NCBI GenBank assembly: GCA_032718475.1 | Contig: JAUCBJ010001901.1 | Coordinates: forward strand, 1 to 32,802 | Reading direction: 5' to 3' | Source: Nemertoderma westbladi | Taxonomy: Eukaryota; Animalia; Xenacoelomorpha | Length of the DNA stretch: 32,802 nucleotides | Part shown: positions 1-31,257 of the stretch, piece after piece | Layout: every line of letters starts with the position of its first letter | How positions within the stretch are numbered: position 1 is the stretch's first letter | The notes under the pieces: generated by a model | The model's database searches: none | What the model saw: only the letters and a program-made list of their open reading frames with translations | Told to the model about the DNA's origin: nothing | Made by a program: the position numbers and the translations under genes

Positions 1-695
1 TTTGTGATGCTTCACGGTGTGTTATCTGTCAACATGTTAGGTTAGGGGGTTCAGGGGACAATATCACAGTTACCGGAACAACCGAAGGTAGAAAGAAAAT
101 AATAGCAGCCGCACAAATCCGAAAAGATATCGTTTTGAAAAGGATAAATTATCTGGGATTAGACTCTGAGTTTGTACATCATTGCAACAATGAGTGTTAC
201 AAATTATACACATTAAAGAAAACACTTCTAAAAAAACAAAGAGAACCGGAAGTGATAGAGGAAACCAACGGAAAAGAAAATGAGTCTGTTCCAAGTCCAA
301 CTAAAAGGCTCAGGTCCGAAATCGCCTCACGTCACCAAGGGTCATTTCCTAAAGACGACCCCACCCAATTAACTTGCATTATATGCGGTAATCAAAAGCA
401 TGGCAGTACTAGGGAGAAATACAGGATATGCGAGACAAATAGAGCAACAACATTTCTTGCAGCTACTAATTTCTTTAAGGATGAAATATACGTCAAAACC
501 TGTGATCTTGACAATGTACAAGCTGTCTTTGCTGCGGATTTATTTTATCGCAAGCTTTGTCTTGAAGCATATATTCAAAAATATAAGAGGCGATGCCAGC
601 AATCTTATGGTGTCGAACAAGCAACGTCCTCTTAAGGCAAAGCTATAAATTACATCAAACCACTGCTTCAAGACATTTTTGACAGTGGTTATGGT

Positions 696-3619: not shown

Positions 3620-4412
3620 TGTGATGATTCCAGTTCAGATAGATAGGTTTTGGGCATCAGGAGAAAATAAAGTGTTGTTACAAGATGCGCTTAAAGGATT
3701 CATATTGGGTGTGTTGGAAAACCAACCGTTGGACACTATCTTAAGTGGTGTAGTTTGCGAAGATGAATCTATACCTGGAGTAATTCTAAAAGCGAACAGT
3801 GGAGGAGCGATCGAAGGTCTGGAGAAGTTCAACATTGAAGAAGCAGACCTGCGTCTCATTCCGCATATTTTGAACGCGGTTAAAGATGGATCTGAAAGAA
3901 TCATCGTGCTCTCAAATGATACCAATGTGTTGGTGCTGCTCATCCATTTCTACAACACTTTTCACGAGAATGGTTTGTCAGAGTTATGGATGAGAAAAAC
4001 GTCAACAGAACTTATCCCAATTCATCGACTTGTGGAACAGATCGGTCCTATTAGTGAGGCTATACTTGCATGTCATTACCTCACTGGATCTGATGTTACT
4101 AGCAAAATAGGCACCAAAAGGGCAGCCCTAAAGGTGCACCCAGAACTCTATTTAAAGAACTTCGGGCGATGTTTCCCACCTAATAAAGAATCATTCAAAC
4201 ATGCAGAGCAATATTTGGTTAAGGTCATAAAGCCACGATCGACTAGTAAAACGTTTGACAGTCTGCGATCCGAAATCGTTAGACAAGAAGGTGCTCCAAA
4301 CTTATTAAACCTTCCTTGTTCAAGTCATTCATTGCAGGGTCATTTTGTTGCCCTTGTAACAAAATGTTCAAGTGGTTTGTGTTGTGTGCATTCTACCATT
4401 TCCGTTAATTAA
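3600..4412 (+). pseudogene. XPG/FEN1-like (PIN + H3TH) nuclease portion of the Academ protein, C-terminally deleted
   Basis: EEADLRLIPH, SNDTNVLVLL, HYLTGSDVTS and LPCSSHSLQGH are followed abruptly by a broken Cys cluster (CCPCNK / CSSGLCC, 4345-4385). Confidence 0.68.
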
Positions 4413-4555: not shown

Positions 4556-5900
4556 TATGACCATCACTAGTATCCACCTGCTCCGCGTCATTAGAACCTT
4601 TGGTCGTTGTGTCCTGTGTCGTTATGACCATCACTAGTATCCACCTGCTCCGCGTTATTAGGACCTTTGGTCGTTGTGTCCTGTGTCGTTATGACCATCA
4701 CTAGTATCCACCTGCCCCGTGTCATTAGGACCTTTGGTCGTTGTGTCCTGTGTCGTTATGACCATCACTAGTATCCACCTGCTCCGCGTCATTAGGACCT
4801 TTGGTCGTTGTGTCCTGTGTCGTTATGACCATCACTAGTATCCACCTGCTCCGCGTCATTAGGACCTTTGGTCGTTGTGTCCTGTGTCGTCATGATCATC
4901 ACTAGTATCCACCTGCTCCGCGTCATTAGGACCTTTGGTCGTTGTGTCCTGTGTCGTTATGACCATCACTAGTATCCACCTGCTCCGCGTCATTAGGACC
5001 TTTGGTCGTTGTGTCCTGTGTCGTCATGACCATCACTAGTATCCACCTGCCCCGCGTCATTAGGACCTTTGGTCGTTGTGTCCTGTGTCGTCATGATCAT
5101 CACTAGTATCCACCTGCTCCGCGTCATTAGGACCTTTGGTCGTTGTGTCCTGTGTCGTTATGACCATCACTAGTATCCACCTGCTCCGCGTCATTAGGAC
5201 CTTTGGTCGTTGTGTCCTGTGTCGTTATGACCATCACTAGTATCCACCTGCTCCGCGTCATTAGGACCTTTGGTCGTTGTGTCCTGTGTCGTTATGACCA
5301 TCACTAGTATCCACCTGCCCAGCGTCATTAGGACCTTTGGTCGTTGTGTCCTGTGTCGTTATGACCATCACTAGTATCCACCTGCTCCGCGTCATTAGGA
5401 CCTTTGGTCGTTGTGTCCTGTGTCGTTATGACCATCACTAGTATCCACCTGCTCCGCGTCATTAGGACCTTTGGTCGTTGTGTCCTGTGTCGTTATGACC
5501 ATCACTAGTATCCACCTGCCCCGCGTCATTAGGACCTTTGGTCGTTGTGTCCTGTGTCGTTATGACCATCACTAGTATCCACCTGCCCCGCGTCATTAGG
5601 ACCTTTGGTCGTTGTGTCCTGTGTCGTTATGACCATCACTAGTATCCACCTGCCCCGCGTCATTAGGACCTTTGGTCGTTGTGTCCTGTGTCGTTATGAC
5701 CATCACTAGTATCCACCTGCTCCGCGTCATTAGGACCTTTGGTCGTTGTGTCCTGTGTCGTTATGACCATCACTAGTATCCACCTGCTCCGCGTCATTAG
5801 GACCTTTGGTCGTTGTGTCCTGTGTCGTTGTGACCATCACTAGTATCCACCTGCTCCGCGTCATTAGGACCTTTGGTCGTTGTGTCCTGTGTCATTATGA
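4556..5900. repeat. 67-bp minisatellite, 20 near-identical copies
   Basis: Unit tatgaccatcactagtatccacctgctccgcgtcattaggacctttggtcgttgtgtcctgtgtcgt; 1345 bp / 67 = 20; only scattered substitutions and no spacers. Confidence 0.97.
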
Positions 5901-7670: not shown

Positions 7671-7705
7671 TCACGCTGGCAGAGTCAGTTGCTTTCCTTT
7701 CAGCA
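7671..7705 (-). CDS. KDELR: KDELR coding exon 5 (35 nt, stop codon)
   Basis: Acceptor tatgtttttag; encodes (V)[13 protein letters not shown], matching the typical KDELR tail VLKGKKLSLPA. Confidence 0.95.
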
Positions 7706-10700
7706 CTAAAAACATAAAGGCAATTAAATTCATTAGTTTTTAATGGACTTTTCGTAAAAGTATTATATTTTTATCGGCGATATAATACGAATTGAAAGAG
7801 CGTTAAAATATATATAAATTGCTCCAAGATGGAGCTGTCAATCAATAGTTAGTATAGTACCTAGAGCTGTCAATCAATAGTTAGTATAGTACCTAGAGCT
7901 GTCAGTCAATAGTACCTAGAGCTGTCAATCAATAGTACCTAGAGCTGTCAATCAATAGTAACTAGAGCTGTCAATCAATAGTAACTAGAGCTGTCAGTCA
8001 ATAGTAACTAGACATGTCAATCAATAGTAACTAGAGCTGTGAGTCAATAGTAACTAGAGCTGTCAGTCAATAGTAACTAGAGCTGTCAGTCAATAGTAAC
8101 TAGAGCTGTCAGTCAATAGTACCTAGAGCTGTCAGTCAATAGTTAGTATAGTACCTAGAGCTGTCAGTCAATTGTAACTAGAGCTGTCAGTCAATAGTAA
8201 CTAGAGCTCTCAGTCAATAGTAACTAGAGCTGTCAGTCAATAGTAACTAGAGCTCTCAGTCAATAGTAACTAGAGCTCTCAGTCAATAGTAACTAGAGCT
8301 GTCAGTCAATAGTAACTAGAGCTGTCAGTCAATTGTTAGTATAGTACCTAGAGCTGTCAGTCAATAGTAACTAGAGCTGTCAGTCAATAGTTAGTATAGT
8401 ACCTAGAGCTGTCAGTCAATAGTAACTAGAGCTGTCAGTCAATAGTACCTAGAGCTGTCAGTCAATAGTAACTAGAGCTGTCAGTCAATAGTAACTAGAG
8501 CTCTCAGTCAATAGTAACTAGAGCTGTCAGTCAATAGTAACTAGAGCTGACAGTCAATAGTTAGTATAGTACCTAGAGCTGTCAGTCAATAGTAACTAGA
8601 GCTGTCAGTCAATAGTAACTAGAGCTGTCAGTCAATTGTTAGTATAGTACCTAGAGCTGTCAGTCAATAGTAACTAGAGCTGTCAGTCAATAGTACCTAG
8701 AGCTGTCAGTCAATAGTAACTAGAGCTGTCAGTCAATAGTAACTAGAGCTCTCAGTCAATAGTAACTAGAGCTGTCAGTCAATAGTAACTAGAGCTGACA
8801 GTCAATAGTTAGTATAGTACCTAGAGCTGTCAGTCAATAGTAACTAGAGCTGTCAGTCAATAGTAACTAGAGCTGTCAGTCAATAGTAACTAGAGCTGAC
8901 AGTCAATAGTTAGTATAGTACCTAGAGCTGTCAGTCAATAGTAACTAGAGCTGTCAGTCAATAGTAACTAGAGCTGTCAGTCAATAGTAACTAGAGCTGA
9001 CAGTCAATAGTTAGTATAGTACCTAGAGCTGTCAGTCAATAGTAACTAGAGCTGTCAGTCAATAGTACCTAGAGCTGTCAGTCAATTGTAACTAGAGCTG
9101 TCAGTCAATAGTAACTAGAGCTCTCAGTCAATAGTAACTAGAGCTGTCAGTCAATAGTAACTAGAGCTGACAGTCAATAGTTAGTATAGTACCTAGAGCT
9201 GTCAGTCAATAGTAACTAGAGCTCTCAGTCAATAGTAACTAGAGCTGTCAGTCAATAGTAACTAGAGCTGACAGTCAATAGTTAGTATAGTACCTAGTTC
9301 TCTCAGTCAATAGTAACTAGAGCTGTCAATCAATAGTAACTAGAGCTGTCAGTCAATAGTAACTAGACCTGTCAATCAATAGTAACTAGAGCTGTCAGTC
9401 AATAGTAACTAGACATGTCAATGAATAGTAACTAGAGCTGTGAGTCAATAGTACCTAGAGCTGTCAGTCAATAGTTAGTATAGTACCTAGAGCTGTCAGT
9501 CAATAGTAACTAGAGCTCTCAGTCAATAGTAACTAGAGCTGTCAGTCAATAGTAACTAGAGCTGTCAGTCAATAGTAACTAGAGCTGACAGTCAATATTT
9601 AGTATAGTACCTAGAGCTGTCAGTCAATAGTAACTAGAGCTGTCAATCAATAGTAACTAGAGCTGTCAGTCAATAGTAACTAGAGCTGTCAGTCAATAGT
9701 AACTAGAGCTGTCAGTCAATAGTAACTAGAGCTGTCAGTCAATAGTAACTAGAGCTGTCAGTCAATAGTAACTAGTTCTCTCAGTCAATAGTACCTAGAG
9801 CTGTCAGTCAATAGTAACTAGAGCTGTCAGTCAATAGTAACTAGAGCTGTCAGTCAATAGTAACTAGAGCTGTCAGTCAATAGTAACTAGTTCTCTCAGT
9901 CAATAGTACCTAGAGCTGTCAGTCAATAGTAACTAGAGCTGTCAGTCAATAATAACTAGAGCTGTCAGTCAATAGTAACTAGAGCTGACAGTCAATAGTT
10001 AGTATAGTACCTAGAGCTGTCAGTCAATAGTAACTAGAGCTGTCAGTCAATAGTAACTAGAGCTGTCAGTCAATAGTTAGTATAGTACCTAGAGCTGTCA
10101 GTCAATTGTAACTAGAGCTGTCAGTCAATAGTAACTAGAGCTCTCAGTCAATAGTAACTAGAGCTGTCAGTCAATAGTAACTAGAGCTGTCAGTCAATAG
10201 TAACTAGAGCTGACAGTCAATAGTTAGTATAGTACCTAGAGCTGTCAGTCAATTGTAACTAGAGCTGTCAGTCAATAGTAACTAGAGCTCTCAGTCAATA
10301 GTAACTAGAGCTGTCAGTCAATAGTAACTAGAGCTGTCAGTCAATAGTAACTAGAGCTGTCAGTCAATAGTACCTAGAGCTGTCAGTCAATAGTAACTAG
10401 AGCTGTCAGTCAATAGTAACTAGAGCTGTCAGTCAATAGTAACTAGAGCTGTCAGTAAATAGTACCTAGAGCTGTCAGTCAATAGTAACTAGAGCTCTCA
10501 GTCAATAATAACTAGAGCTGTCAGTCAATAGTAACTTGATCTCTCAGTCAATAGTAACTAGAGCTCTCAGTCAATAATAACTAGAGCTGTCATTCAATAG
10601 TAACTAGAGCTGTCAGTCAATAGTAACTAGAGCTGTCAGTCAATAATAACTAGAGCTGTCAGTCAATAGTAACTTGATCTCTCAGTCAATAGTAACTAGA

Positions 10701-13700
10701 GCTGTCAGTCAATAGTAACTAGAGCTGTCAGTCAATAGTAACTAGAGCTGACAGTCAATAGTTAGTATAGTACCTAGAGCTGTCAGTCAATTGTAACTAG
10801 AGCTGTCAGTCAATAGTAACTAGAGCTCTCAGTCAATAGTAACTAGAGCTGTCAGTCAATAGTAACTAGAGCTGTCAGTCAATAGTAACTAGAGCTGTCA
10901 GTCAATAGTACCTAGAGCTGTCAGTCAATAGTAACTAGAGCTGTCAGTCAATAGTAACTAGAGCTGTCAGTCAATAGTAACTAGAGCTGTCAGTCAATAG
11001 TACCTAGAGCTGTCAGTCAATAGTAACTAGAGCTCTCAGTCAATAATAACTAGAGCTGTCAGTCAATAGTAACTTGATCTCTCAGTCAATAGTAACTAGA
11101 GCTCTCAGTCAATAATAACTAGAGCTGTCATTCAATAGTAACTAGAGCTCTCATTCAATAGTAACTAGATCTCTCAGTCAATAGTAACTAGAGCTCTCAG
11201 TCAATAATAACTAGAGCTGTCAGTCAATGGTAACTAGAGTTCTCAGTCAATAATAACTAGAGCTGTCAGTCAATAGTAACTAGATCTCTCAGTCAATAGT
11301 AACTAGATCTCTCAGTCAATAGTAACTAGAGCTCTCAGTCAATAGTAACTAGAGCTCTCAGTCAATAGTAACTAGAGCTGTCAGTCAATAGTAACTAGAG
11401 CTGTCAGTCAATAGTAACTAGAGCTGTCAGTCAATAGTAACTAGAGCTCTCAGTCAATAGTAACTAGAGCTGTCAGTCAATAGTAACTATAGCTCTCAGT
11501 CAATAGTAACTAGAGCTGTCAGTCAATAGTAACTAGAGCTGTCAGTCAATAGTAAGTAACTAAAGCTCTCAGTCAATAGTAACTAGAGCTGTCAGTCAAT
11601 AGTAACAAGAGCTGTCAGTCAATAGTAACTATTGACCTGTCAATCAGTAACTAGAGCTGTCAGTCAATAGTAACTAGAGCTGTCAGTCAATAGTTAGTAT
11701 AGTACCTAGAGCTGTCAGTCAATAGTAACTAGAGCTGTCAGTCAATAGTAACTAGAGCTGTCAGTCAATAGTTAGTATAGTACCTAGAGCTGCCAGTCAA
11801 TAGTAACTAGAGCTGTCAGTCAATAGTAACTAGAGCTGTCAGTCAATAGTAACTAGAGCTGTCAGTCAATAGTAACTAGAGCTGTCAGTCAATAGTAACT
11901 AGAGCTGTCAGTCAATAGTACCTAGAGCTGTCAGTCAATAGTAACTAGAGCTGTCAGTCAATAGTAACTAGAGCTGTCAGTCAATAGTTAGTATAGTACC
12001 TAGAGCTGTCAGTCAATTGTAACTAGAGCTGTCAGTCAATAGTAACTAGAGCTCTCAGTCAATAGTAACTAGAGCTGTCAGTCAATAGTAACTAGAGCTG
12101 TCAGTCAATAGTAACTAGAGCTGACAGTCAATAGTTAGTATAGTACCTAGAGCTGTCAGTCAATAGTAACTAGAGCTGTCAGTCAATAGTAACTAGAGCT
12201 GTCAGTCAATAGTTAGTATAGTACCTAGAGCTGCCAGTCAATAGTAACTAGAGCTGTCAGTCAATAGTAACTAGAGCTGTCAGTCAATAGTAACTAGAGC
12301 TGTCAGTCAATAGTAACTAGAGCTGTCGGTCAATAGTAACTAGAGCTGTCAGTCAATAGTACCTAGAGCTGTCAGTCAATAGTAACTAGAGCTGTCAGTC
12401 AATAGTACCTAGAGCTGTCAGTCAATAGTAACTAGAGCTGTCAGTCAATAGTAACTAGAGCTGTCAGTCAATAGTAACTAGAGCTGTCAGTCAATAGTAC
12501 CTAGAGCTGTCAGTCAATAGTAACTAGAGCTGTCAGTCAATAGTACCTAGAGCTGTCAGTCAATAGTAACTAGAGCTCTCAGTCAATAATAACTAGAGCT
12601 GTCAGTCAATAGTAACTTGATCTCTCAGTCAATAGTAACTAGAGCTCTCAGTCAATAATAACTAGAGCTGTCATTCAATAGTAACTAGATCTCTCAGTCA
12701 ATAGTAACTAGAGCTCTCAGTCAATAATAACTAGAGCTGTCAGTCAATGGTAACTAGAGTTCTCAGTCAATAATAACTAGAGCTGTCAGTCAATAGTAAC
12801 TAGATCTCTCAGTCAATAGTAACTAGATCTCTCAGTCAATAGTAACTAGATCTCTCAGTCAATAGTAACTAGAGCTCTCAGTCAATAGTAACTAGAGCTG
12901 TCAGTCAATAGTAACTAGAGCTCTCAGTCAATAGTAACTAGAGCTCTCAGTCAATAGTAACTAGAGCTGTCAGTCAATAGTAACTAGAGCTGTCAGTCAA
13001 TAGTAACTAGAGCTGTCAGTCAATAGTAACTAGAGCTCTCAGTCAATAGTAACTAGAGCTGTCAGTCAATAGTAACTAGAGCTGTCAGTCAATAGTAACA
13101 AGAGCTGTCAGTCAATAGTAACTATTGACCTGTCAATCAGTAACTAGAGCTGTCAGTCAATAGTAACTAGAGCTGTCAGTCAATAGTAACTAGAGCTGTC
13201 AGTCAATAGTAACTAGATCTCTCAGTCAATAGTAACTAGAGCTGTCAGTCAATAGTAACTAGAGCTGTCAGTCAATAGTAACTAGAGCTGTCAGTCAATA
13301 GTAACTAGAGCTGTCAGTCAATAGTAACTAGAGCTGTCAGTCAATAGTAACTAGAGCTGTCAGTCAATAGTAACTAGAGCTGTCAGTCAATAGTAACTAG
13401 ATCTCTCAGTCAATAGTAACTAGAGCTCTCAGTCAATAGTAACTAGAGCTGTCAGTCAATAGTAAGTAACTAGAGCTCTCAGTCAATAGTAACTAGAGCT
13501 GTCAGTCAATAGTAACTAGAGCTCTCAGTCAATAGTAACTAGATCTCTCAGTCAATAGTAACTAGAGCTGTCAGTCAATAGTAACTAGAGCTGTCAGTCA
13601 ATAGTAACTAGAGCTGTCAGTCAATAGTAACTAGAGCTGTCAGTCAATAGTAACTAGAGCTGTCAGTCAATAGTAACTAGAGCTGTCAGTCAATAGTAAG

Positions 13701-16700
13701 TAACTAGAGCTGTCAGTCAATAGTAACTAGAGCTGTCAGTCAATAGTAACTAGAGCTGTCAGTCAATAGTAACTAGAGCTGGCAGTCAATAGTAACTAGT
13801 TCTCTCAGTCAATAGTAACTAGAGCTCTCAGTCAATAGTAACTAGATCTCTCAGTCAATAGTAACTAGAGCTGTCAGTCAATAGTAACTAGAGCTGTCAG
13901 TCAATAGTAACTAGAGCTGTCAGTCAATAGTAAGTAACTAGAGCTGTCAGTCAATAGTAACTAGAGCTGTCAGTCAATAGTAACTAGAGCTGTCAGTCAA
14001 TAGTAACTAGAGCTGTCAGTCAATAGTAACTAGAGCTGTCAGTCAATAGTAACTAGAGCTGGCAGTCAATAGTAACTAGTTCTCTCAGTCAATAGTACCT
14101 AGAGCTGTCAGTCAATAATAACTAGAGCTGTCAGTCAATAGTAACTAGAGCTGTCAATCAATAGTAACTAGAGCTGTCAGTCAATAGTAACTAGAGCTGT
14201 CAGTCAATAGTAACTAGAGCTGTCAGACAATAGTAATTAGAGCTGTCAGTCAATAGTAACTAGAGCTGTCAGTCAATAGTAACTAGATCTCTCAGTCAAT
14301 AGTAACTAGAGCTCTCAGTCAATAGTAACTAGAGCTGTCAGTCAATAGTAACTAGAGCTGTCAGTCAATAGTAACTAGATCTCTCAGTCAATAGTAACTA
14401 GAGCTCTCAGTCAATAGTAACTAGAGCTGTCAGTCAATAGTAACTAGAGCTGTCAGTCAATAGTAACTAGAGCTGTCAGACAATAGTAATTAGAGCTGTC
14501 AGTCAATAGTAACTAGAGCTGTCAGTCAATAGTAACTAGAGCTGTCAGTCAATAGTAACTAGATCTCTCAGTCAATAGTAACTAGAGCTCTCAGTCAATA
14601 GTAACTAGAGCTGTCAGTCAATAGTACCTAGAGCTGTCAGTCAATAGTAACTAGAGCTGTCAGTCAATAGTAACTAGAGCTCTCAGTCAATAGTAACTAG
14701 AGCTGTCAGTCAATAGTAACTAGAGCTGTCAGACAATAGTAACTAGATCTCTCAGTCAATAGTAACTAGAGCTCTCAGTCAATAGTACCTAGAGCTGTCA
14801 GTCAATAGTAACTAGAGCTCTCAGTCAATAGTAACTATAGAGCTGTCAGTCAATAGTAACTAGAGCTGTCAGTCAATAGTAACTAGAGCTGTCAGTCAAT
14901 AGTAACTAGATCTCTCAGTCAATAGTAACTAGAGCTCTCAGTCAATAGTACCTAGAGCTGTCAGTCAATAGTAACTAGAGCTCTCAGTCAATAGTAACTA
15001 TAGAGCTGTCAGTCAATAGTAAGTAACTAGAGCTCTCAGTCAATAGTAACTAGATCTCTCAGTCAATACTCATTAGTAACTACTAACTAGATCTCTCAGT
15101 CAATAGTAATTAGAGCTGCCAGTCAATAGCAACTAGAGCTGTCAGTCAATAGTAACTAGAGCTGTCAGTCAATAGTAACTAGATCTCTCAGTCAATAGTA
15201 ACTAGAGCTCTCAGTCAATAGTAACTATAGAGCTGTCAGTCAATAGTAAGTAACTAGAGCTCTCAGTCAATAGTAACTAGATCTCTCAGTCAATACTCAT
15301 TAGTAACTACTAACTAGAGCTGTCAGTCAATAGTAACTAGAGCTGTCAGTCAATAGTAACTAGAGCTGTCAGTCAATAGTAACTAGAGCTGTCAGTCAAT
15401 AGTAACTAGAGCTGTCAGTCAATAGTAACTAGATCTCTCAGTCAATAGTAACTAGAGCTCTCAGTCAATAGTACCTAGAGCTGTCAGTCAATAGTAACTA
15501 GAGCTCTCAGTCAATAGTAACTATAGAGCTGTCAGTCAATAGTAAGTAACTAGAGCTCTCAGTCAATAGTAACTAGATCTCTCAGTCAATACTCATTAGT
15601 AACTACTAACTAGATCTCTCAGTCAATAGTAATTAGAGCTGCCAGTCAATAGCAACTAGAGCTGTCAGTCAATAGTAACTAGAGCTGTCAGTCAATAGTA
15701 ACTAGATCTCTCAGTCAATAGTAACTAGAGCTCTCAGTCAATAGTAACTAGAGCTGTCAGTCAATAGTAACTAGAGCTCTCAGTCAATAGTACCTAGAGC
15801 TGTCAGTCAATAGTAACTAGAGCTCTCAGTCAATAGTAACTATAGAGCTGTCAGTCAATAGTAAGTAACTAGAGCTCTCAGTCAATAGTAACTAGATCTC
15901 TCAGTCAATACTCATTAGTAACTACTAACTAGATCTCTCAGTCAATAGTAATTAGAGCTGCCAGTCAATAGCAACTAGAGCTGTCAGTCAATAGTAACTA
16001 GAGCTGTCAGTCAATAGTAACTAGAGCTGTCAGTCAATAGTAACTAGAGCTGTCAGTCAATAGTAACTAGATCTCTCAGTCAAAAGTAACTAGAGCTCTC
16101 AGTCAATAGTAACTAGAGCTGTCAGTCAATAGTAAGTAACTAGAGCTCTCAGTCAATAGTAACTAGATCTCTCAGTCAATACTCATTAGTAACTACTAAC
16201 TAGATCTCTCAGTCAATAGTAATTAGAGCTGCCAGTCAATAGCAACTAGAGCTGTCAGTCAATAGTAACTAGAGCTGTCAGTCAATAGTAACTAGAGCTG
16301 TCAGTCAATAGTAACTAGAGCTGTCAGTCAATAGTAACTAGATCTCTCAGTCAAAAGTAACTAGAGCTCTCAGTCAATAGTAACTAGAGCTGTCAGTCAA
16401 TAGTAAGTAACTAGAGCTCTCGGTCAATAGTAACTAGATCTCTCAGTCAATAGTAACTAGAGCTCTCAGTCAATAGTAACTAGAGCTGTCAGTCAATAGT
16501 AAGTAACTAGAGCTCTCAGTCAATAGTAACTAGAGCTGTCAGTCAATAGTAACTAGAGCTGTCAGTCAATAGTAACTAGGCCTGTCAGTCAATAGTAAGT
16601 AACTAGAGCTCTCAGTCAATAGTAACTAGAGCTGTCAGTCAATAGTAACTAGAGCTGTCAGTCAATAGTAACTAGAGCTGTCAGTCAATAGTAACTAGAG

Positions 16701-19700
16701 CTGTCAGTCAATAGTAACTAGAGCTGTCAGTCAATAGTAACTAGAGCTGTCAGTCAATAGTAACTAGAGCTCTCAGTCAATAGTAACTAGAGCTGTCAGT
16801 CAATAGTAACTAGAGCTGTCAGTCAATAGTAACTAGTTCTCTCAGTCAATAGTACCTAGATCTGTCAGTCAATAATAACTAGAGCTGTCAGTCAATAGTA
16901 ACTAGAGCTGTCAATCAATAGTAACTAGAGCTGTCAGTCAATAGTAACTAGAGCTGTCAGTCAATAGTAACTAGAGCTGTCAGTCAATAGTAACTAGAGC
17001 TGTCAGTCAATAGTAACTAGAGCTCTCAGTCAATAGTAACTAGAGCTCTCAGTCAATAGTAACTAGAGCTCTCAGTCAATAGTAACTAGAGCTGTCAGTC
17101 AATAGTAACTAGAGCTGTCAGTCAATAGTAACTAGTTCTCTCAGTCAATAGTACCTAGATCTGTCAGTCAATAATAACTAGAGCTGTCAGTCAATAGTAA
17201 CTAGAGCTGTCAATCAATAGTAACTAGAGCTGTCAGTCAATAGTAACTAGAGCTGTCAGTCAATAGTAACTAGAGCTGTCAGTCAATAGTAACTAGAGCT
17301 GTCAGTCAATAGTAACTAGAGCTGTCAGTCAATAGTAACTAGAGCTGTCAGTCAATAGTAACTGACCTTTTGTAACGTAAAGGTAGAAGAAATCGCAGTA
17401 AAGGATAGTTTGAACACATCCGGCGACGATGGCGATAAGATCATAGAAACCGTCGGAGTAGTAACGGTATATCCAGTTGAGTAGATAGAGAGCGCGGTAC
17501 GAACCTAAAAGAGAAACACAGAGTAGTAACGGTATATCCAGTTGAGTAGATAGAGAGCGCGGTACGAACCTAAAAGAGAAACACAGAGTAGTAACGGTAT
17601 ATCCAGTTGAGTAGATAGAGAGCGCGGTACGAACCTAAAAGAGAAACACAGATTAGTAACGGTATATCCAGTTGAGTAGATAGAGAGCGCGGTACGAACC
17701 TAAAAGAGAAACACAGATTAGTAACGGTATATCCAGTTGAGTAGATAGAGAGCGCGGTACGAACCTAAAAGAGAAACACAGGTAATGACTTGTAATGACT
17801 CACCCAAAGAGAACAGGTAATGACTTGTAATGACTCACCCAAAGAGAACAGGTAATGGCTTGTAATGCTTTCTGCTTCACCAGTTTTACTAATAAGGAAT
17901 AGTTGTGGAAGGATGGCAACGGATTCTAAGTAAATAGAAAACGTCCAAAGAATCTGGGGAGAAATAATTAATAGAAATTGTGATTTGTCATACCAAAATA
18001 AAACAATGGGATCAAAACATTTTATGAATCTACGTTTGTCGTGGGCCAGTCAATTTAGTTTGCTTAGGTGGGGGGAGGGGTGTGTCTGTCTGTCTACCAT
18101 GTTACTTTGTCCGGGGGGAGTTCACCAAGGGGGTGGGGGTGTTCAACGATATGACCCCGGTATCTGCTAGGCCAAAAACTATATAAGAGACAATCCTCAC
18201 TGCCGTTCGAATATATTTGATTAGAAAATTGAAAAACTTATGAGAGGGATCTATCTCTTAAAGGTCTTATAACTTCACCGCTTTATTACACTGAATGTCC
18301 TTGAAATGATTCTATTCTCTCGTAAATATCACGAAATTGTTTCTGTATAACATAAAATGAAAAATTATACATTACATTATATAAAAAACATTAACACAAT
18401 TAATTATAATATAGTAAATCACCTTAATTATATAATATAATTAGACTAAATTGGGTCAAATTATCTGTAACTAAAAATATTAAATGTTTTACCTCCAATG
18501 GCGAGAAATCGTGGTTGACGAGGAATGCCAACCCGCCCACCGGTACAATGAGGAACTCGGCTCGGAAAGTGTCGTGGTTACTGTCGTAGGTCGCCTTGAA
18601 CTTAAAGTACATGAGGAAAATCGTCGCCGCAGACGAGGAAATAAAGAAAATCTTCATGGTGGTATTGTATAGGGAAATAAAGTTCGTTACCAAGTCCAGG
18701 TACCGAGTCACAAACACCAGAAGAAACATCACCTGTGTTTTACCAGATATTCCTAAAACAAAATGTAAGCAAATAATTTTTAAATCAATACTGATGGTGA
18801 TACCGTACCTCAATGTGTCAGGGAAATAAAGTAATTTTTGTACAAAAAGTATAAAAGCAACATTTTGTCCGACTTTTTGCATGACCTGAATGCTTTTACT
18901 ATTTCGAGGAAATGCGGTTAACCAACCCCCCCCCCCCCCCCCCCCCCACAAATTTTACTACAAATCTTGATGAGATTGAATGAAATTTGAAACATAGATT
19001 GTTTAACCTACATCCTCCTTAGTTGGTGAACCAGAATTTTTATTTTCTCTTTCAATATTTAGCTACAAGCGTTTGAATAAAAGTGCCTCCGCTCCGGCAA
19101 TTGCGTACCAGTCACCAGTCAGTTATTCTTCATAACCTTATAGTAGTTAGTTGGTTGGTAGCAATGGAAAGCTGGCCGTGCAAGGATTCCAAATATGTAA
19201 AAACATTTGAATTTGGTTGGGATATAGCTGAGTTATGGGAAATTCGAAAGTTGCAAGTAATGCAGGCCATTTATTCTATTAAATAAAAACACAATATTCT
19301 GGAACATTTTGTTTATCTTATAGTAACTTGGCAACAATGCAATGCCTATAATAATAATACTAAAGTATTTTTTTTTAAATTACGCAGCAGTTTATTTTTG
19401 CTAATAACTTCGCGAGTTTTAATCGTACGAAGATGGTTTTGGGCTCATTCTGTTCGGAATATAACGATTTTATTCAAATCTACTTACAATTTTATAATCT
19501 TATTATTTTTTCTCATTCAAAAACTATGTTAAATAAATACATCTTTTTGGAAATTATGTTTCAACATTCGAGATTTGCACTCTAATAGAGCAATAATCAC
19601 TCATTTCAGAAATATATGGGTTTAGAGGTTTTTATTTCGTTGCATTGCAATAATTATGATTCAAATGTATCCAAATCGTTGTCTTTCTGTAATTATTATT

Positions 19701-22177
19701 GAAATCGTTTAAATGTTTAGTAAGACGTGATGATTGATATAAGCATATCAGATACTTATTGTTAGTTAATGTTTCCAAGGAAACCTATTCATTTGTGGTA
19801 GCAGACGGACCATTGTGGTCGGAAATCCTTTTTTATATTATTGATGGATGTAATACAGTGTAATGAGTACATTAATGGATATGATTACAAAATGAAAGTT
19901 TTTATTGTATTCTTATTTATCGCGTTATTTTCATAACTTGGCATAGATTATTTACTGCCGAAGTAATATTTACAACTGTGCGGCATCCCTATCTAATGTG
20001 TGTTCTAGAGTTGATACAGAGACTGTCACTGATCTCTGGATTCTCCGGGCAATTTTTTGGTCTCTGGATAGGTCTCTCTGGTTCCCGGGTATTGAAAACA
20101 CACATTTTACCCAGAGATCAGTGATTTTTCAAATTAAAAAAATATATTGTACAATATAAAATGATAAATGAAGATTTTATCACAAAAATCTTTTTACTAT
20201 AAAAATAATTACTTTAATTTTTTAACAATTTTTAATACTCCGCTTCAACAAAATTATATAGCAACTTCTACCCTATTTTTAAGCATGACTCACACTAAAT
20301 GAACCAGTAATCTTCTATTTAATTTCAGGTGCGTTTCATAAGTTAAATTTGCACCTAAAGAGGGTTCTTATTTAAGAATAAGGGTGCTTAATTTGAACTC
20401 CCATGAAGTTTACATGTAAAAGTAGAGCTCTTTTCACCTTGTTGTAGGCTATATATTACGCGACCAAATAAAGAGAACGAGCGTAACTAGACTTGCAATA
20501 GGGTCGAATAGCGTACTGGACTTGTGCACTAACTGTATTCGTAAATGACCAAGTTTATAGAGTCCAGTAATACGTATATGATTTTAACAGTTGTGAATTC
20601 AGTGCCTTTTATATTTAACAAAGTCCCTATGTAGCAAAACAAATTAATGTAACTTTTAAAATTAACCCAAACTGTACTTGCGCTTATTTTTTTCATTAGG
20701 TAAGGGTTGAATCGGTTGGATTTACTGTAATTCAACCATAAATAGTTCTCAGTTCATACATACCTGTTTTTTGCTATAATCAAATTATAAGTACAAAAAT
20801 AAGCAAAGTCTCTGATCCCTGGCTCTGGTATTTTCCAAAATAATTATCTGGGAAGGTCTCTGGTTCACCGGGATTAAGAAAAATATGTCTCTGTTTCAAC
20901 TCTAGTATGTTAATCTTCAAACATCCCATAGAATCTAACCTAAGAACATAACCGCAGAACATATGTTCTGTTGCTATGGAAACTTTCCACCATATTTAAA
21001 TTGCTGAAAGGAAAGGCGTTTATTTAACAACATTACACGATTCCGAAAATTTATTATTACAGATAAACCAACGATTTGGATGCATTTGAGACGTAATTAT
21101 TGCAATGTCGCTAAATAATAAGGCGCGCTAAACCCATATATTTTTGAAACCAGCAATTATTGCTCTTTAAGGCAACAATAAAAAGCGCAAATAACTTCAT
21201 GACTTGAGAAATAAAGATTCTAAAAAACAGCTGACGTTTCGATTTACTTAACAATAATCATTAACTATCAATAATAATCAATAATCATTAAATTTTTGTA
21301 ACAGCGTTTTTGAATGAGAAAAATAATAAGATTATAAAATTGGAAGTGGATTTGAATAAAATCGTCATATTCCGAACATATTCCAAAACCAGCTCCGTAC
21401 GATCATAACAATGTCCAATGCCATAACTAGGCCTCCCTGTAAATATAGGAATACGTGATTAATATTGACTTGCGGCGAGGTGTCCGATAATTTGCGGCGA
21501 AATGGCATTCATAATGAGACACCTCGCCGCATACTATCAGCGGGGTGCGGGGAGGTGACCTGCGGCGAAGTGGGAAGTTGGCAGTACGGCGAGGTGACCA
21601 CTGACCAGCACCCTAAAACACCTATTTAGTGAACTTTTAACTACAATTTCTAGTATTGTAGTTAAAACATTACAGTAGTCATTACAGTAGCCAATCAATT
21701 CCCACATTCGGGTGTTGACGGTGAGACATTGTATAGATGTATTATATTGAACAGTTGGTACTTCCCTAAACCGAAGAAAAAATGGTAATATCTTGTAACA
21801 ACGTTGTTCTGCCGCTGCCTGATATCCCCAATGCGCCAATGGAATTAAATTAAAAAAGTAATACCATTATAATGATGAAATAATGAAATGAAATTTAACT
21901 GAATTATATATCGGTACCTGTCAGCCGGTAGTATATCAGTATATCACTGAGATACTTAGACAGCTACAGTAGAGCTGCTGTAGAGCTCATTACATATTAA
22001 TAATGTTATTGTACCGGTACCGGTCAGCCGGCATATTACCTGATTAATGTACTGCCAAGATACAGTTAATCAATTATAAAACAAACCTGCACAAGATCGA
22101 GTCTTCCATATCTTCAGCAGTAATACCACAATCGCCACCAAATGGCTCATATCTCCAAGTAGCCGAAAGATATTCAT
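7671..22177 (-). CDS. KDELR: ER lumen protein-retaining receptor (KDEL receptor / ERD2), complete 5-exon CDS, 212 aa: join(complement 22087-22177, 18493-18752, 17839-17953, 17367-17504, 7671-7705)
   Basis: Spliced translation: [51 protein letters not shown]...[103 protein letters not shown]. Exon lengths 91+260+115+138+35 = 639 nt; all introns GT-AG with matching phases. Confidence 0.97.
7832..17363. repeat. 23-bp satellite, ~9.5 kb, about 400 units, filling KDELR intron 4
   Basis: Consensus tagtaactagagctgtcagtcaa, with recurrent variants (gctctc, gatctc, tacct, +ttagtatag, +aagt). Confidence 0.98.
17367..17504 (-). CDS. KDELR: KDELR coding exon 4 (138 nt)
   Basis: Acceptor gtttctcttttag; encodes [46 protein letters not shown]; donor GTCAGT at 17366. 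Confidence 0.96.
17456..17780 (-). repeat. 65-bp x5 tandem repeat made of the KDELR intron-3 acceptor plus the first 49 nt of exon 4
   Basis: gtaacggtatatccag... recurs at 17461, 17526, 17591, 17656 and 17721. Each copy carries TGTGTTTCTCTTTTAG|GTTCGTAC on the minus strand. Confidence 0.97.
17778..17867 (-). repeat. 35-bp x~2.6 tandem repeat made of the end of KDELR exon 3 plus its donor
   Basis: acaggtaatgacttgtaatgactcacccaaagaga at 17778 and 17813, with a partial (exonic) copy at 17848. Gives GTGAGT donors at 17838 and 17803. Confidence 0.95.
17839..17953 (-). CDS. KDELR: KDELR coding exon 3 (115 nt)
   Basis: Acceptor tttctccccag; encodes [38 protein letters not shown]+G (contains the PQ motif); donor GTGAGT at 17838. 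Confidence 0.96.
18493..18752 (-). CDS. KDELR: KDELR coding exon 2 (260 nt)
   Basis: Acceptor tgttttag; encodes GISGKTQ...TRYLDL...[15 protein letters not shown]...NHDFSPLE; donor GTAAAA at 18492. Confidence 0.97.
20006..20904. mobile_element. Non-autonomous TIR element, hAT-like, in KDELR intron 1
   Basis: 18-bp TIR TAGAGTTGATACAGAGAC (20006-20023) / GTCTCTGTTTCAACTCTA (20887-20904), 17/18 match. Flanks GTGTGTTC / GTATGTTA match at 6/8 (degenerate 8-bp TSD). Subterminal TCTCTGG repeats occur at both ends. Confidence 0.6.
22087..22177 (-). CDS. KDELR: KDELR coding exon 1 (91 nt)
   Basis: ATG at 22177-22175; encodes [30 protein letters not shown]+G; donor GTTTGT at 22086. Confidence 0.97.
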
Positions 22178-25362: not shown

Positions 25363-25850
25363 AGCGTCTACTCGACTATTACTTTAGCGTCTACTCGACT
25401 ATTACTTAGCGTCTACTCGACTATTACTTAGCGTCTACTCGACTATTACTTAGCGTCTACTCGACTATTACTTAGCGTCTACTCGACTATTACTTTAGCG
25501 TCTACTCGACTATTACTTAGCGTCTACTCGACTATTACTTAGCGTCTACTCGACTATTACTTAGCGTCTACTCGACTATTACTTAGCGTCTACTCGACTA
25601 TTACTTAGCGTCTACTCGACTATTACTTTAGCGTCTACTCGACTATTACTTAGCGTCTACTCGACTATTACTTAGCGTCTACTCGACTATTACTTAGCGT
25701 CTACTCGACTATTACTTAGCGTCTACTCGACTATTACTTAGCGTCTACTCGACTATTACTTAGCGTCTACTCGACTATTACTTAGCGTCTACTCGACTAT
25801 TACTTAGCGTCTACTCGACTATTACTTAGCGTCTACTCGACTATTACTTA
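25363..25850. repeat. 22-bp minisatellite, 22 copies
   Basis: Unit agcgtctactcgactattactt; three copies carry an extra T. Confidence 0.97.
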
Positions 25851-26484: not shown

Positions 26485-27283
26485 ACATGAGAGTAAAAAC
26501 CCAAGCGATCATTTTGTGAACATCCAATGATATTGCCTGTTTTATAAATGCTTTAAGTTGTTATGGGATGTTCTGTTTGATTGGTTGTTGTGTGATTTAC
26601 TTGCTAATCTTGGCCAGTATTAAATGCACTAAATCAACAAGCGATCAATGTAACTTAGTAGTTTACATTTAAATATTAGCAGTATGCCGGTAGCTCTACA
26701 TGTACTCTCAGACTCTAACACACTTACCTATGACGCTATGAGTGATTGTTTGCAGTGACTGACGTAATAATGAAAGAATGCAGGAATGTACTTAAGAATA
26801 TAATACAATTGATGGACTCTTCCTCTAGGTTCTAGGATAGAGCTGTAGAGGCCAGGCCTCTTTACAGCTTTAATCTTTGTAAAATACTGTCATATCGTAC
26901 AATACAGCAGTAACTGGACATTTAATGTAGGTAAATAATATGTAATACAGATATAATATAAATAATACTTTCCCTCACTTAATAATTATCATTGCTAATT
27001 CGCCGGGATGTGCTTTTAATTCACCAAGATATGTTTTCGAAAATCCCCCCCCCCCCCCCCCCCCTCCATCATGCCTCCTGTGAAACATATTGACTCCTAC
27101 TGTATATCTGTACACATTGATCAGTGCTTGTTGATTTAGTGTATTTAATACTGGCCAAGATTAGCAAGTAAATCACATAACAACCAATCAAACAGAACAT
27201 CCCATAACAACTTAAAGCATTTATAAAACAGGCAATATCATTGGATGTTCACAAAATGATCGCTTGGGTTTTTACTCTCATGT
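26485..27283. mobile_element. 799-bp non-autonomous element with ~167-bp TIRs and a perfect 9-bp TSD (Mutator/MULE-like)
   Basis: 26485-26651 is the reverse complement of 27114-27283 (2 substitutions, one 3-bp indel). TGCTGCAGG lies at 26476-26484 and 27284-27292. Confidence 0.88.
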
Positions 27284-28696
27284 TGCTGCAGGTAGGCAGT
27301 GTGTAGGCCAGCTGTTTACTGGTTTAAGTGCTGCAATAGGGTTGACCATACTGCCATATGTTTGTTTACTGCCGTATGCCTATATTAACTGTTTAAGTTA
27401 TTTTTAATTAAGCTTCATACTGCCTGACTGTCATATAAACTGATAAATCTTTTTATATTATACATTATATGTTATATAGGCCTACATAACATATATAATA
27501 CATAATACTGTAATATATGTCATATACATTATATATTATTTATGTACATTATATAGGCCTAGCAGCCTAGCCTAATTGTATTGTAATACCAGAATACAGT
27601 AATATGTCTGTATGTAATGCAGTCAGGCAGTGCAGTGCCAGTAATTCGATGACGACGACAGTTTAGATTGGGCTCTGTCTTCCTGGCGCTGGTTGGTCGA
27701 AACAACAGGCAAGCGGCAAGGGCTGCACTGGCAGACTGGCTGACTGGAAAAATATTATGGCCTCCTCGAAATGCCGGCCTACTACCGGTACAGCGGTACG
27801 TTGGAAAGAATTTTCGAATCCAGATCTTCTGTCAACTGTCAAGTTGGCCCACATTTAATGCGAAGGTTCTTCACTTAACAGGTTTGTATTGAACTTGAAT
27901 AGGCTTCTTACACATCGTTATTTCAGTGATTCAAGTGATTAAAATCCTAATCCTGTAATCTATTTGGATCAAATAGAGGGAAAAAGCGCCGGCGGTCGGA
28001 AGTAAATTACACATGCCAGCATGCGGTCCCAGGCAGCCAGCTAAAGATACGCATCAGATTCTGGCGATGAGGTTATTATTTTACTTACTACTACTGTACT
28101 AGGCCTTGCTGTTAGGTTAGGCCCACTTGGTACTTTGGGCCGTTTATAAATCGTCAGATCGTGCATATGCTTAAACTGTAATTTAAAATAAAACATGCCT
28201 TACTCTGGCTATCTATGGTAGGTAAGTAAATGTTTGCTTTATTTTTTACTCATTTCCTCTTTATAAACCAGTCCCCAGTGCAGTGGTAATGTGAAACAGT
28301 CTGTGATGGGTTGTGGTGACTTGTGCACGTTGATCTAATTGCTCCAATGCTATATGTATATATATTATTATCATTTTAGGTGGAATATATGAGCGACAAT
28401 GAATCCAATCATGTTTCCAATACGATACTCACACTGATTACCCAGACAACTAACAATACGTTGATCATTGATACTCAGAGGTGAGTTGTGATACCGCCTC
28501 TCCCTCTATCTACAACCTAACCCTATTCTAAGACAACACTAAACTCTAGACTTACCTAACCAAACCCTTTCACCAAGCTACCACTATATATCCCATGGCG
28601 ATATTTTCTCGAAATATTTTCCAGTCTCGATGTTTTATATATCGAGACGCTTTTTTATACTTTTGGAAGCAGAGACAGAAGTTGGGCGAGACAGAA

Positions 28697-30472
28697 GTCA
28701 CAGCCACTCAAAGCTATGTTACAACCACTCAATGCTATGTCACAGCCACTCAACGCTATCTCACAGGCGCTCAATGCCATGTCACAGCCACTCAATGCAA
28801 TGTCACAACCACTCAATGCTATGTCACAGCCGCTCAATGCTATGTCACAGCCGCTCAATGCTATGTCACAGCCACTCAAAGCTATGTCACAGACACTCAA
28901 CGCTATGTCACAGCCACTCAACACTATCTCACAGGCGCTCAATGCCATGTCACAGCCACTCAATGCAATGTCACAACCACTCAATGCTATGTCACAGCCG
29001 CTCAATGCTATGTCACAGCTGCTCAATGCTATGTCATACCCACTCAACGCTATGCCACAGCCACCCAACGCTATGTCACAGCCACAGCCACTCAACGCTA
29101 TCTCACAGGCGCTCAATGCCATGTCACAGCCACTCAACGCTATGTCACAACCACGCAATGCTATGCCACAGCCACCCAACGCTATGTCACAGCCACTCAA
29201 CGCTATGTCACAGCCGCTCAATGCTATGTCACAGCCACTCAACGCTATGTCACAGCCACCCAACGCTATGTCACATCACACCACCCAACGCTATGTCACA
29301 GCCGCTCAATGCTATGTCACAGCCGCTCAATGCTATGTCACAGCCGCTCAATGCTATGTCACAGCCGCTCAATGCTTTGTCACAGCCACTCAAAGCTATG
29401 TCACAGCCACTCAACGCTATGTCACAGTTACTCAACGCTATGTCACAGCCACTCAACGCTATGTCACAGCCAATCAACGCTAGCCACCCAACGCTATGTC
29501 ACAGCCAATCAACGCTATGTCACAGCCACTCAACGCTATGTCACAGCCACTCAACGCTATGTCACAGCCAATCAACGCTAGCCACCCAACGGCCAATCAA
29601 CGCTAGCCACCCAACGCTATGTCACAGCCAATCAACGCTATGTCACAGCCACTCAATGCTATGCCACAGCCACCCAACGCTATGTCACAGTCACCCAACG
29701 CTATGTCACAGCCAATCAACGCTAGCCACCCAACGCTATGTCACAGCCACTCAAAGCTATGTCACAGCCACTCAACGCTATGTCACAGCCAATCAACGCT
29801 ATGTCACAGCCACTCAATGCTATGCCACAGCCACCCAACGCTATGTCACAGCCGCTCAATGCTATGTCACAGCCACTCAACGCTATGTCACAGCCAATCA
29901 ACGCTAGCCACCCAACGCTATGTCACAGCCAATCAACGCTATGTCACAGCCACTCAATGATATGTCACAGCCGCTCAATGCTTTGTCACAGCCACTCAAA
30001 GCTATGTCACAGCCACTCAAAGCTATGTCACAGCCACTCAACGCTATGTCACAGCCAATCAACGCTATGTCACAGCCACTCAATGCTATGCCACAGCCAC
30101 CCAACGCTATGTCACAGCCGCTCAATGCTATGTCACAGCCGCTCAATGCGTCACAGCCGCTCAATGCTTTGTCACAGCCACTCAAAGCTATGTCACAGCC
30201 ACTCAACGCTATGTCACAGTTACTCAACGCTATGTCACAGCCACTCAACGCTATGTCACAGCCAATCAACGCTAGCCACCCAACGCTATGTCACAGCTAA
30301 TCAACGCTATGCCACAGCCACTCAATGCTATGCCACAGCCACCCAACGCTATGTCACAGTCACCCAACGCTGGCCACCCATCGCTGGCCACCCAACGCTG
30401 TGTCACAGTCACCCAACGCTGGCCACCCATCGCTGGCCACCCAACGCTATGTCACAGCGACAGCCACTCAAC
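28697..30472. repeat. 21-bp minisatellite, about 80 units, degenerate
   Basis: Unit gtcacagccactcaacgctat, with shorter derivative units (gctagccacccaac) toward the right end. Confidence 0.96.
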
Positions 30473-30645: not shown

Positions 30646-31257
30646 ATCCTTGGTGGAACGGACTCCGGATTCAGTGATATCGACGGATCCTTGGTGGAAC
30701 GGACTCCGGATTCAGTGATATCGACGGATCCTTGGCGGAACGGACTCCGGATTCAGTGATATCGACGGATCCTTGGTGGAACGGACTCCGGATTCAGTGA
30801 TATCGACGGATCCTTGGCGGAACGGACTCCGGATTCAGTGATATCGACGGATCCTTGGCGGAACGGACTCCGGATTCAGTGATATCGACGGATCCTTGGT
30901 GGAACGGACTCCGGATTCAGTGATATCGACGGATCCTTGGCGGAACGGACTCCGGATTCAGTGATATCGACGGATCCTTGGCGGAACGGACTCCGGATTC
31001 AGTGATATCGACGGATCCTTGGTGGAACGGACTCCGGATTCAGTGATATCGACGGATCCTTGGCGGAACGGACTCCGGATTCAGTGATATCGACGGATCC
31101 TTGGCGGAACGGACTCCGGATTCAGTGATATCGACGGATCCTTGGCGGAACGGACTCCGGATTCAGTGATATCGACGGATCCTTGGTGGAACGGACTCCG
31201 GATTCAGTGATATCGACAGATCCTTGGCGGAACGGACTCCGGATTCAGTGATATCGA
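30646..31257. repeat. 41-bp minisatellite, ~15 copies
   Basis: Unit ggatccttggYggaacggactccggattcagtgatatcgac; almost invariant apart from a T/C site. Confidence 0.97.

What the first reader, a model, noticed from the sequence alone, without database searches (positions are those of the whole stretch)
17505..17838. KDELR intron 3 is built almost entirely from duplicated exon ends: candidate intron gain (or intron rebuilding) by tandem duplication
Seen: the sense intron reads GTGAGT-[CATTACAAGTCATTACCTGTTCTCTTTGG]-GTGAGT-[CATTACAAGTCATTACCTGTGTTTCTCTTTTAG], then four copies of [first 49 nt of exon 4 + TGTGTTTCTCTTTTAG]. The polypyrimidine tract and AG (TACCTGTGTTTCTCTTTTAG|GT) look like a modified copy of the last exon-3 codons (TACCTGTTCTCTTTGG|GT). 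Almost no unique intron sequence exists. From memory (unverified), vertebrate KDELR has one 253-nt exon here, equal to 115+138. Inference: either a young intron created by tandem duplication of exonic DNA, a long-proposed but rarely captured mechanism, or an older intron overwritten by boundary duplications.
Basis: partly seen in the sequence, partly recalled or inferred. Interest (0 to 1): 0.85.

Follow-up and report, generated by a model that had tools for sequence, protein, structure and literature searches.

The report
KDELR intron overwritten by mirage repeats
One 334-base intron of an animal's KDEL-receptor gene consists almost wholly of head-to-tail copies of the two neighbouring exon ends and is cut out exactly in spliced transcripts; it is likely an older intron whose two borders were amplified as known "mirage" repeats and whose middle was likely deleted, though birth of a new intron by duplication is not excluded.

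Summary
Intron 3 (17838-17505, minus strand) is 35 + 39 + 4x65 nt of exon-edge copies, and only the first of 2 donors with the last of 5 acceptors gives the 212-aa protein. Spliced contigs from two samples make exactly that cut, and both repeat units are in DNA runs of two samples. The position is uncommon: 114 of 116 genomic-looking animal fragments read through it, but an arthropod-like gene has an ordinary 73-nt intron at the same base. Both arrays fit the 'mirage' repeats of amphioxus (PMC3087553); the scan has noted these many times elsewhere in this genome and in others, which changed my reading. Two copies carry a branch-point motif that the exon lacks, and the arrays meet at a 4-nt microhomology, so I favour an older intron overwritten from both ends (0.6) over birth by tandem duplication (0.3). 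No close relative's gene was available, so the intron's age is untested, and the junction of the two arrays rests on the window alone.

The parts
22087..22177 (-). KDELR coding exon 1 (91 nt, predicted)
18493..18752 (-). KDELR exon 2 (260 nt)
   Evidence: PF00810; joined to exon 3 in X4 and X5 contigs (loose ends)
17839..17953 (-). KDELR exon 3 (115 nt); its last 29 nt are the template of the donor-side repeat; first donor follows it and is the one used
17804..17838 (-). 35-nt donor-side mirage unit: GTGAGT + copy of the last 29 nt of exon 3 (one mismatch, at the Ser codon); followed by an identical decoy donor
   Evidence: loop contig 17793-17857 in X1 and X2
17765..17803 (-). 39-nt core: decoy donor + 20-nt partial exon copy + acceptor tail; the two arrays overlap at the 4-nt microhomology CTGT (17781-17778), the inferred deletion joint
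   Evidence: not bridged by any laid contig
17635..17764 (-). 65-nt acceptor-side mirage units 1-2, with C>A at 17718 and 17653 that gives a CTAAT branch-point motif, A at -19 from the AG end (inferred relic of the older intron)
   Evidence: loop contig 17664-17758 in X1
17505..17634 (-). 65-nt acceptor-side mirage units 3-4, identical to exon 4 over 49 nt; unit 4 ends in the acceptor that yields the intact mRNA
   Evidence: loop contig 17494-17588 in X2
17367..17504 (-). KDELR exon 4 (138 nt); first 49 nt are the template of the acceptor-side repeat
7706..17366 (-). intron 4 (9,661 nt), nearly all a 23-nt satellite (about 400 copies) that starts within 5 nt of the donor
7671..7705 (-). KDELR last coding exon (35 nt with stop)
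   Evidence: joined to exon 4 in the X4 contig

Best explanation
Intron 3 is a working intron made of tandem copies of its two exon borders, and it is likely an older, lineage-restricted intron whose donor and acceptor were each amplified as mirage minisatellites and whose unique middle was then likely deleted where the two arrays share a 4-nt microhomology. Steps. (1, inferred) An intron with donor GTGAGT and a 3' end reading branch point TACTAAT + pyrimidine tract + AG already sat at CDS position 466. (2, shown as structure; order inferred) The last 29 nt of exon 3 plus the donor were duplicated (35-nt unit). (3, structure shown; trigger inferred) The intron's 3' end plus 49 nt of exon 4 were duplicated (65-nt unit), helped by a 7-of-8 match between the old branch-point region and exon 4 exactly 65 nt away; a crossover in the 5' part of that match gives the CTAAT variant and one in the 3' part gives the exon-type variant, which explains both unit types without a point mutation. 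(4, inferred) A deletion from a donor unit to an acceptor unit at CTGT removed the interior. (5, outcome shown, mechanism inferred) The spliceosome uses the first donor and delivers the last acceptor, likely by 5'-to-3' donor scanning and by exon definition across the only complete exon 4, with nonsense-mediated decay removing most errors; stepwise removal is an alternative, since every 65-nt unit begins GT and ends AG. The arrays are likely neutral and variable in length.
For: Unit design equals mirage design at both ends (against PMC3087553). Exact splicing in 2 of 2 spliced contigs, one from the sample whose DNA holds the units. CTAAT at -19 in 2 of 4 units; only 3 of 195 single substitutions of the exon-type unit would create a YTRAY motif at -15 to -35; the gene's other 3 of 3 introns have such a motif at -15 to -33. 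The motif lies at decoy acceptors, not the used one, so selection for splicing does not readily explain it (inference). CTGT shared by donor unit, junction and acceptor unit. Differences from the exon cluster in the splice signals (1 change in the 20-nt middle, about 5 in the 19 nt of the ends), as expected if the ends are old signals. Exon reads GG|GT, not AG|GT. Same position and phase holds a 73-nt unique intron in L001, with no significant likeness to its flanks (p 0.43), and P0233 and P0287/P0505 break there with Gly-Lys as a GTAAG donor would give. 43% of the window lies in tandem arrays.
Against: The position is rare in the sample: 114 of 116 genomic-looking fragments and L004 lack it, and L001 is arthropod-like while the window protein is not placed, so sharing may be parallel gain and says little about this lineage. 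The acceptor tail shares TTCTCTTT with the exon end: none of 11 real acceptors scored above 6 against 10 observed; p 0.015-0.024 by simulation (0.13 by own-tail shuffle). With the allele seen at 17870 in X3, X4 and X5 the exon reads GAGAG just before the copied stretch, so a duplication joint could have made GTGAG by itself, one inserted base short of the present donor. The branch-point argument is post hoc and rests on one base. No trace of the supposed interior was seen.
Confidence: 0.6

Rival explanations
1. De novo gain by tandem duplication (Rogers model). A 34-nt exonic stretch ending in the first 2 nt of present exon 4 was duplicated, probably several times; the joint read GTGAG (donor) and the downstream copy ended in a pyrimidine run + AG (if the Leu codon was then TTA). 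A few slips improved the signals, and mirage duplications later lengthened the intron.
For: The whole 39-nt core aligns to the exon end; position absent in 114 of 116 fragments and in L004; tail likeness p about 0.02; the codons here are pyrimidine-rich before G|GT, a natural proto-site that could also explain scattered parallel gains (L001, P0233, P0287); short tandem duplications are frequent in this window.
Against: Needs an unseen TTA allele and about 5 further changes, all in the signals; a single 34-39-nt intron is below the roughly 60-nt minimum cited for human cells in PMC3265369, where an engineered duplication was spliced in only 6-16% of transcripts; a 35-nt unit shifts the frame if retained (retention stops at codon 180); does not explain the CTAAT variant (3 of 195 changes).
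Confidence: 0.3
2. The units are real, but the window's version is shortened: the true allele (or the other haplotype) has a longer array and possibly a unique interior that the assembly collapsed, so 'no unique sequence' is an artefact.
For: Depth of the 65-nt loop contig over its unique flank is 44.7 in X1 and 7.5 in X2, against 3.6 expected from the window, while the 35-nt loop gives 1.5 and 1.7 against 1.4. The tool warns that depth is no copy number, and other loci or other individuals could explain it.
Against: The window resolves a 9.5-kb 23-nt array with internal variants and orders the two 65-nt variants 2 + 2, which suggests long reads; length variation between individuals is expected of mirages (PMC3087553).
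Confidence: 0.07

Closest known systems
Amphioxus 'mirage' minisatellites (Adh3; globins BflGb6, BflGb9). Ebner et al. 2010, PMC3087553; 6 passages seen
   Same: Tandem units that span an exon-intron border and carry the splice signal; both 5' and 3' borders can be affected; normal splicing continues; copy number differs between haplotypes; Adh3 units 10-72 bp cover the 35 and 65 nt seen here.
   Different: Here both borders of one intron carry arrays and they meet, leaving no unique interior; the passages seen show one border per globin gene. That paper also proposes mirages as a route to new introns, which is not what the favoured reading invokes.
Human F7 intron 7 37-bp VNTR. Borensztajn et al. 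2006, PMC1557585; abstract and outline seen
   Same: First unit spans the exon-intron border; identical downstream donors stay silent and the most upstream one is used.
   Different: Donor side only; tested experimentally in mammalian cells; here only 2 donors and the harder problem is 5 identical acceptors.
[quoted passage not shown]
   Same: Intron sequence resembles the flanking exons; position absent in most relatives; splits a Gly codon in phase 1 as in ATP2A1.
   Different: Those cases have an AG|GY proto-splice site in the exon and an intron-less outgroup; here the exon has GG|GT and no close outgroup was available.
Potato RdRp intron. Ma, Lan and Niu 2016, PMC4974935; part 1 of 5 read
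   Same: Duplication across an acceptor (intron end + exon start).
   Different: There a cryptic donor in the upstream copy made a new intron and kept part of the copy as exon; here all copies are removed with one intron and the protein is unchanged.
Variable internal tandem repeats at exon-intron borders of human duplicated genes. De Grassi and Ciccarelli 2009, PMC2812944; 8 passages
   Same: Repeats at borders spliced out of the transcript.
   Different: Young primate paralogs with frequent alternative forms; here a conserved housekeeping gene with one form seen.

Membership tests
Mirage minisatellite | Head-to-tail units that span an exon-intron border | tested here: met
   35-nt and 65-nt units
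Mirage minisatellite | Units carry the splice signal (decoy donors or acceptors) | tested here: met
   2 identical donors, 5 identical 16-nt acceptors
Mirage minisatellite | Regular splicing is preserved | tested here: met
   exact 334-nt skip in X4 and X5 contigs; contigs drop rare forms
Mirage minisatellite | Length instability between haplotypes | tested here: inconclusive
   loop/flank depth 44.7 and 7.5 against 3.6 in the window; depth is only a hint
Mirage minisatellite | The border existed before the duplication | tested here: inconclusive
   true for the 35- and 65-nt units under both readings; age of the intron itself untested
[quoted passage not shown] | Intron sequence is a copy of flanking exon sequence | tested here: met
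[quoted passage not shown] | AG|GT proto-splice site in the duplicated exon segment | tested here: not met
   present exon reads TTG G|GT in the window and, with no other letter listed, in X4 and X5; an earlier TTA allele cannot be excluded
[quoted passage not shown] | Intron absent in close relatives and outgroups | tested here: inconclusive
   absent in 114 of 116 fragments and L004, present in L001; no close relative found (best 84% protein identity)
[quoted passage not shown] | Precise removal, protein unchanged | tested here: met
   212 aa, same length as homologs
Recursive (stepwise) splicing | Intermediates spliced to internal AG|GT points | not testable with these tools
   only assembled contigs were available; each 65-nt unit has GT...AG ends
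KDEL receptor / ERD2 | PF00810 domain, about 212 aa | tested here: met
   E 1.9e-27, 97.3 bits over cut-off 25.6 for exon 2; 79-84% identity to full-length animal homologs

The most novel reading that the evidence does not exclude
A new intron born inside a conserved housekeeping exon by a 34-nt tandem duplication whose joint made the donor in one step, still legible base by base, at a pyrimidine-rich proto-site that has gained introns independently in at least three other animal lineages; in a genome that duplicates short segments at a very high rate, this would make intron birth by duplication datable and countable within one species group.
Probability: 0.3. Interest if true: 0.65.

Novelty: new member of a known kind. 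Interest (0 to 1): 0.35.

Why it matters
On the favoured reading it is a caution: two mirage arrays plus one deletion can turn an old intron into pure exon copies and so forge the signature that is used to claim intron gain by tandem duplication. It is also a compact natural test of splice-site choice (2 identical donors, 5 identical acceptors, the better branch points on the decoys). If relatives lack the intron, it becomes a clean, RNA-supported case of intron birth in an animal housekeeping gene.

Tried and rejected
No whole genome is held, so no genome-wide count of mirages, paralog search or splice-site model could be made. The look-up of sequencing runs listed 6 runs, all one organism, no RNA holder on record; no congener was offered; 5 of the 6 were laid (X6 not). 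No laid DNA contig covers about 17759-17792 (junction of the arrays) or, in X1 and X2, most of exon 4; the tool states that such holes prove nothing, so I draw nothing from them. Protein tree of 57 rows: the window protein falls in no supported group, so the lineage is not placed. DNA pattern in GTDB contigs: 3 matches, 1 real KDELR gene (L004), 2 chance (L002, L003); viral contigs 0. The metagenome pattern asked only for intron-bearing copies with a GTRA donor and fixed residues, found 1, and has no denominator. Idea that L001's intron also arose by duplication: not supported (p 0.43). Of 6 of 249 fragments that do not continue G-x-Y-R, 4 were set aside (P0206, P0276, P0305, P0341: truncated or ambiguous). 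The 249 come from the best 120 of 454 and best 150 of 850 hits; 'Q before the exon start' is only a proxy for genomic origin; 52 of 114 read-through fragments could not be assigned a group. Cluster look-ups gave no organism for P0233 or P0287; 'nematode-like' for P0233 is my recall of the motif. Literature searches for KDELR/ERD2 intron positions (5 papers; top 15 of 2,325 listed, none with the word KDELR) and for 'splice site duplication' (0) found nothing on this intron in the listings; only open-licence PMC and bioRxiv are covered and no supplements were read. Look-ups in the scan's notes by KDELR words, by place and by sequence were empty.

Full report
Observation. The minus strand carries a five-exon KDEL-receptor gene (91, 260, 115, 138, 35 nt; 212 aa; PF00810). 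Intron 3 (17838-17505, 334 nt, phase 1 in Gly156) is a 35-nt unit (donor + last 29 nt of exon 3), a 39-nt core (donor + 20 nt of the same copy + 13-nt acceptor tail) and four 65-nt units (first 49 nt of exon 4 + last 16 intron nt). Of 10 donor-acceptor pairs only first donor + last acceptor gives 212 aa; from the stop positions, 7 of the other 9 put a stop more than 50 nt before the last junction, one is in frame with 55 extra residues, one is frameshifted to the last exon.

Is it real and spliced? Six runs of one organism were listed, five laid. X4 (sample S3) and X5 (S2) each give one contig that skips exactly these 334 nt and joins other exons too, so I read them as RNA although they are labelled 'DNA?'. 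X1 (S1) and X2 (S2) hold both repeat units as perfect loop contigs, X3 (S2) holds pieces of both 65-nt variants. So in sample S2 the units are in the DNA and the transcript is clean. Loop depth over flank depth is 44.7 (X1) and 7.5 (X2) for the 65-nt unit against 3.6 expected from the window, and 1.5 and 1.7 against 1.4 for the 35-nt unit: a hint, not a measure, that the 65-nt array varies in length. No contig bridges the array or the junction between the two arrays; these rest on the window.

Is the position old? An animal KDELR gene in a contig filed under a bacterial bin (L004) has exons 91/260/253/35, with the window's other three introns and none at CDS 466. Among protein fragments called on genomic DNA, 114 of 116 read through Gly156 (19 arthropod-like, 34 vertebrate-like, 8 mollusc-like, 1 tardigrade-like, 52 unassigned) and 2 break there with Gly-Lys, as a GTAAG donor would give (P0233, P0287). 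A pattern scan of metagenome contigs for the intron-bearing form found one locus, L001, an arthropod-like gene with an ordinary 73-nt intron at exactly CDS 466 and one further intron at 281; that intron is not significantly like its flanks. The position is therefore patchy: neither universal nor unique. The window protein could not be placed in a tree (best identity 84%), so these data do not date the intron in this lineage.

What the anatomy says. Before consulting the scan's notes I put birth by duplication at 55%, because the 39-nt core aligns to the exon end throughout, the acceptor tail shares TTCTCTTT with it (p 0.015-0.024 against simulated acceptors, 0.13 against its own shuffles) and an allele at 17870 makes the exon read GAGAG next to the copied stretch. 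Three things moved me. First, the notes (unchecked AI notes) report junction-spanning arrays in many genes of this genome and name the 'mirage' literature, which I checked: PMC3087553 describes tandem duplications of either intron border, with splice signals, normal splicing and length variation, and PMC1557585 shows that the most upstream of identical donors is used (abstract). The 35- and 65-nt units are such arrays under any reading. Second, units 1-2 differ from exon 4 by one base that yields CTAAT with the A 19 nt from the AG end; only 3 of 195 single changes would make such a motif there, the gene's other three introns all have one at -15 to -33, and the used acceptor lacks it. The simplest account is that it is the old intron's branch point, whose 7-of-8 match to exon 4 at 65 nt seeded the duplication and yields both unit types by crossover position. 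Third, donor unit and acceptor unit share CTGT exactly where they meet, as a deletion of the interior would leave. In addition the exon has GG|GT where the duplication model needs AG|GT, and the changes needed all fall in the signals. These arguments are post hoc and partly rest on single bases.

Verdict. Older intron overwritten by two mirages and a deletion 0.6; birth by tandem duplication 0.3; shortened assembly hiding an interior 0.07. Shown: structure, reality of the units, exact splicing outcome, patchy position in other animals. Inferred: order of events, relic branch point, deletion, exon definition and NMD. It is a member of the mirage kind (three features met, two inconclusive); it resembles but is not filed under Rogers-type gain (proto-site not met, outgroup untested). 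Tandem-duplication gain is itself documented (PMC3443670, PMC3265369, PMC3629103, PMC2891723, PMC4974935). I found no paper on this intron or on a double mirage without interior in the listings, which cover open-licence papers only. Interest 0.35; 0.65 if relatives prove to lack the intron.

Noticed in passing
window 7832-17363: KDELR intron 4 (9,661 nt) is almost all one 23-nt satellite, about 400 copies, starting within 5 nt of the donor; its unit is not a copy of the exon end.
   Followed up: partly
window 636-4412 (+): Three long overlapping open frames (551, 446, 306 aa) with no Pfam hit; looks like a decayed large DNA transposon-like element (my recall of such ORFs, untested).
   Followed up: partly
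window 28697-30457 (+): 21-nt array, about 81 copies, open in several frames (one reads as MSQPLNA repeats); coding status unknown.
   Followed up: no
window 30646-31257 (+): 41-nt array x 15 that begins about 45 nt after an acceptor-like TTTTCCAG; could be a repeat inside an exon of a neighbouring gene.
   Followed up: no
window 4556-5900 and 25363-25850: Near-perfect arrays of 67 nt x 20 and 22 nt x 22; with the others, 43% of the window is tandem repeat.
   Followed up: no
window about 26487-26645 and 27125-27285: Inverted pair of about 160 nt, seen by eye; MITE-like.
   Followed up: no
window 17870: Synonymous allele in exon 3 in X3, X4 and X5 but not X1 or X2; X2 and X3 are one sample, so it is likely heterozygous or pooled.
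   Followed up: partly
proteins P0122-P0370: Many fragments leave the KDELR alignment at residue 174 (21) or 167-170 (13), suggesting further lineage-specific introns in the same ancestral 253-nt exon.
   Followed up: no
L001 4563-4268: Extra phase-2 intron at CDS 281, absent from the window and L004: L001's lineage may be rich in gained introns.
   Followed up: no
L004 (contig OZ220042.1): A spliced animal KDELR gene lies in a contig filed as a bacterial bin, so that bin holds animal DNA.
   Followed up: no
protein P0002: The Cyprideis model (383 aa) holds the KDELR sequence twice in tandem.
   Followed up: no
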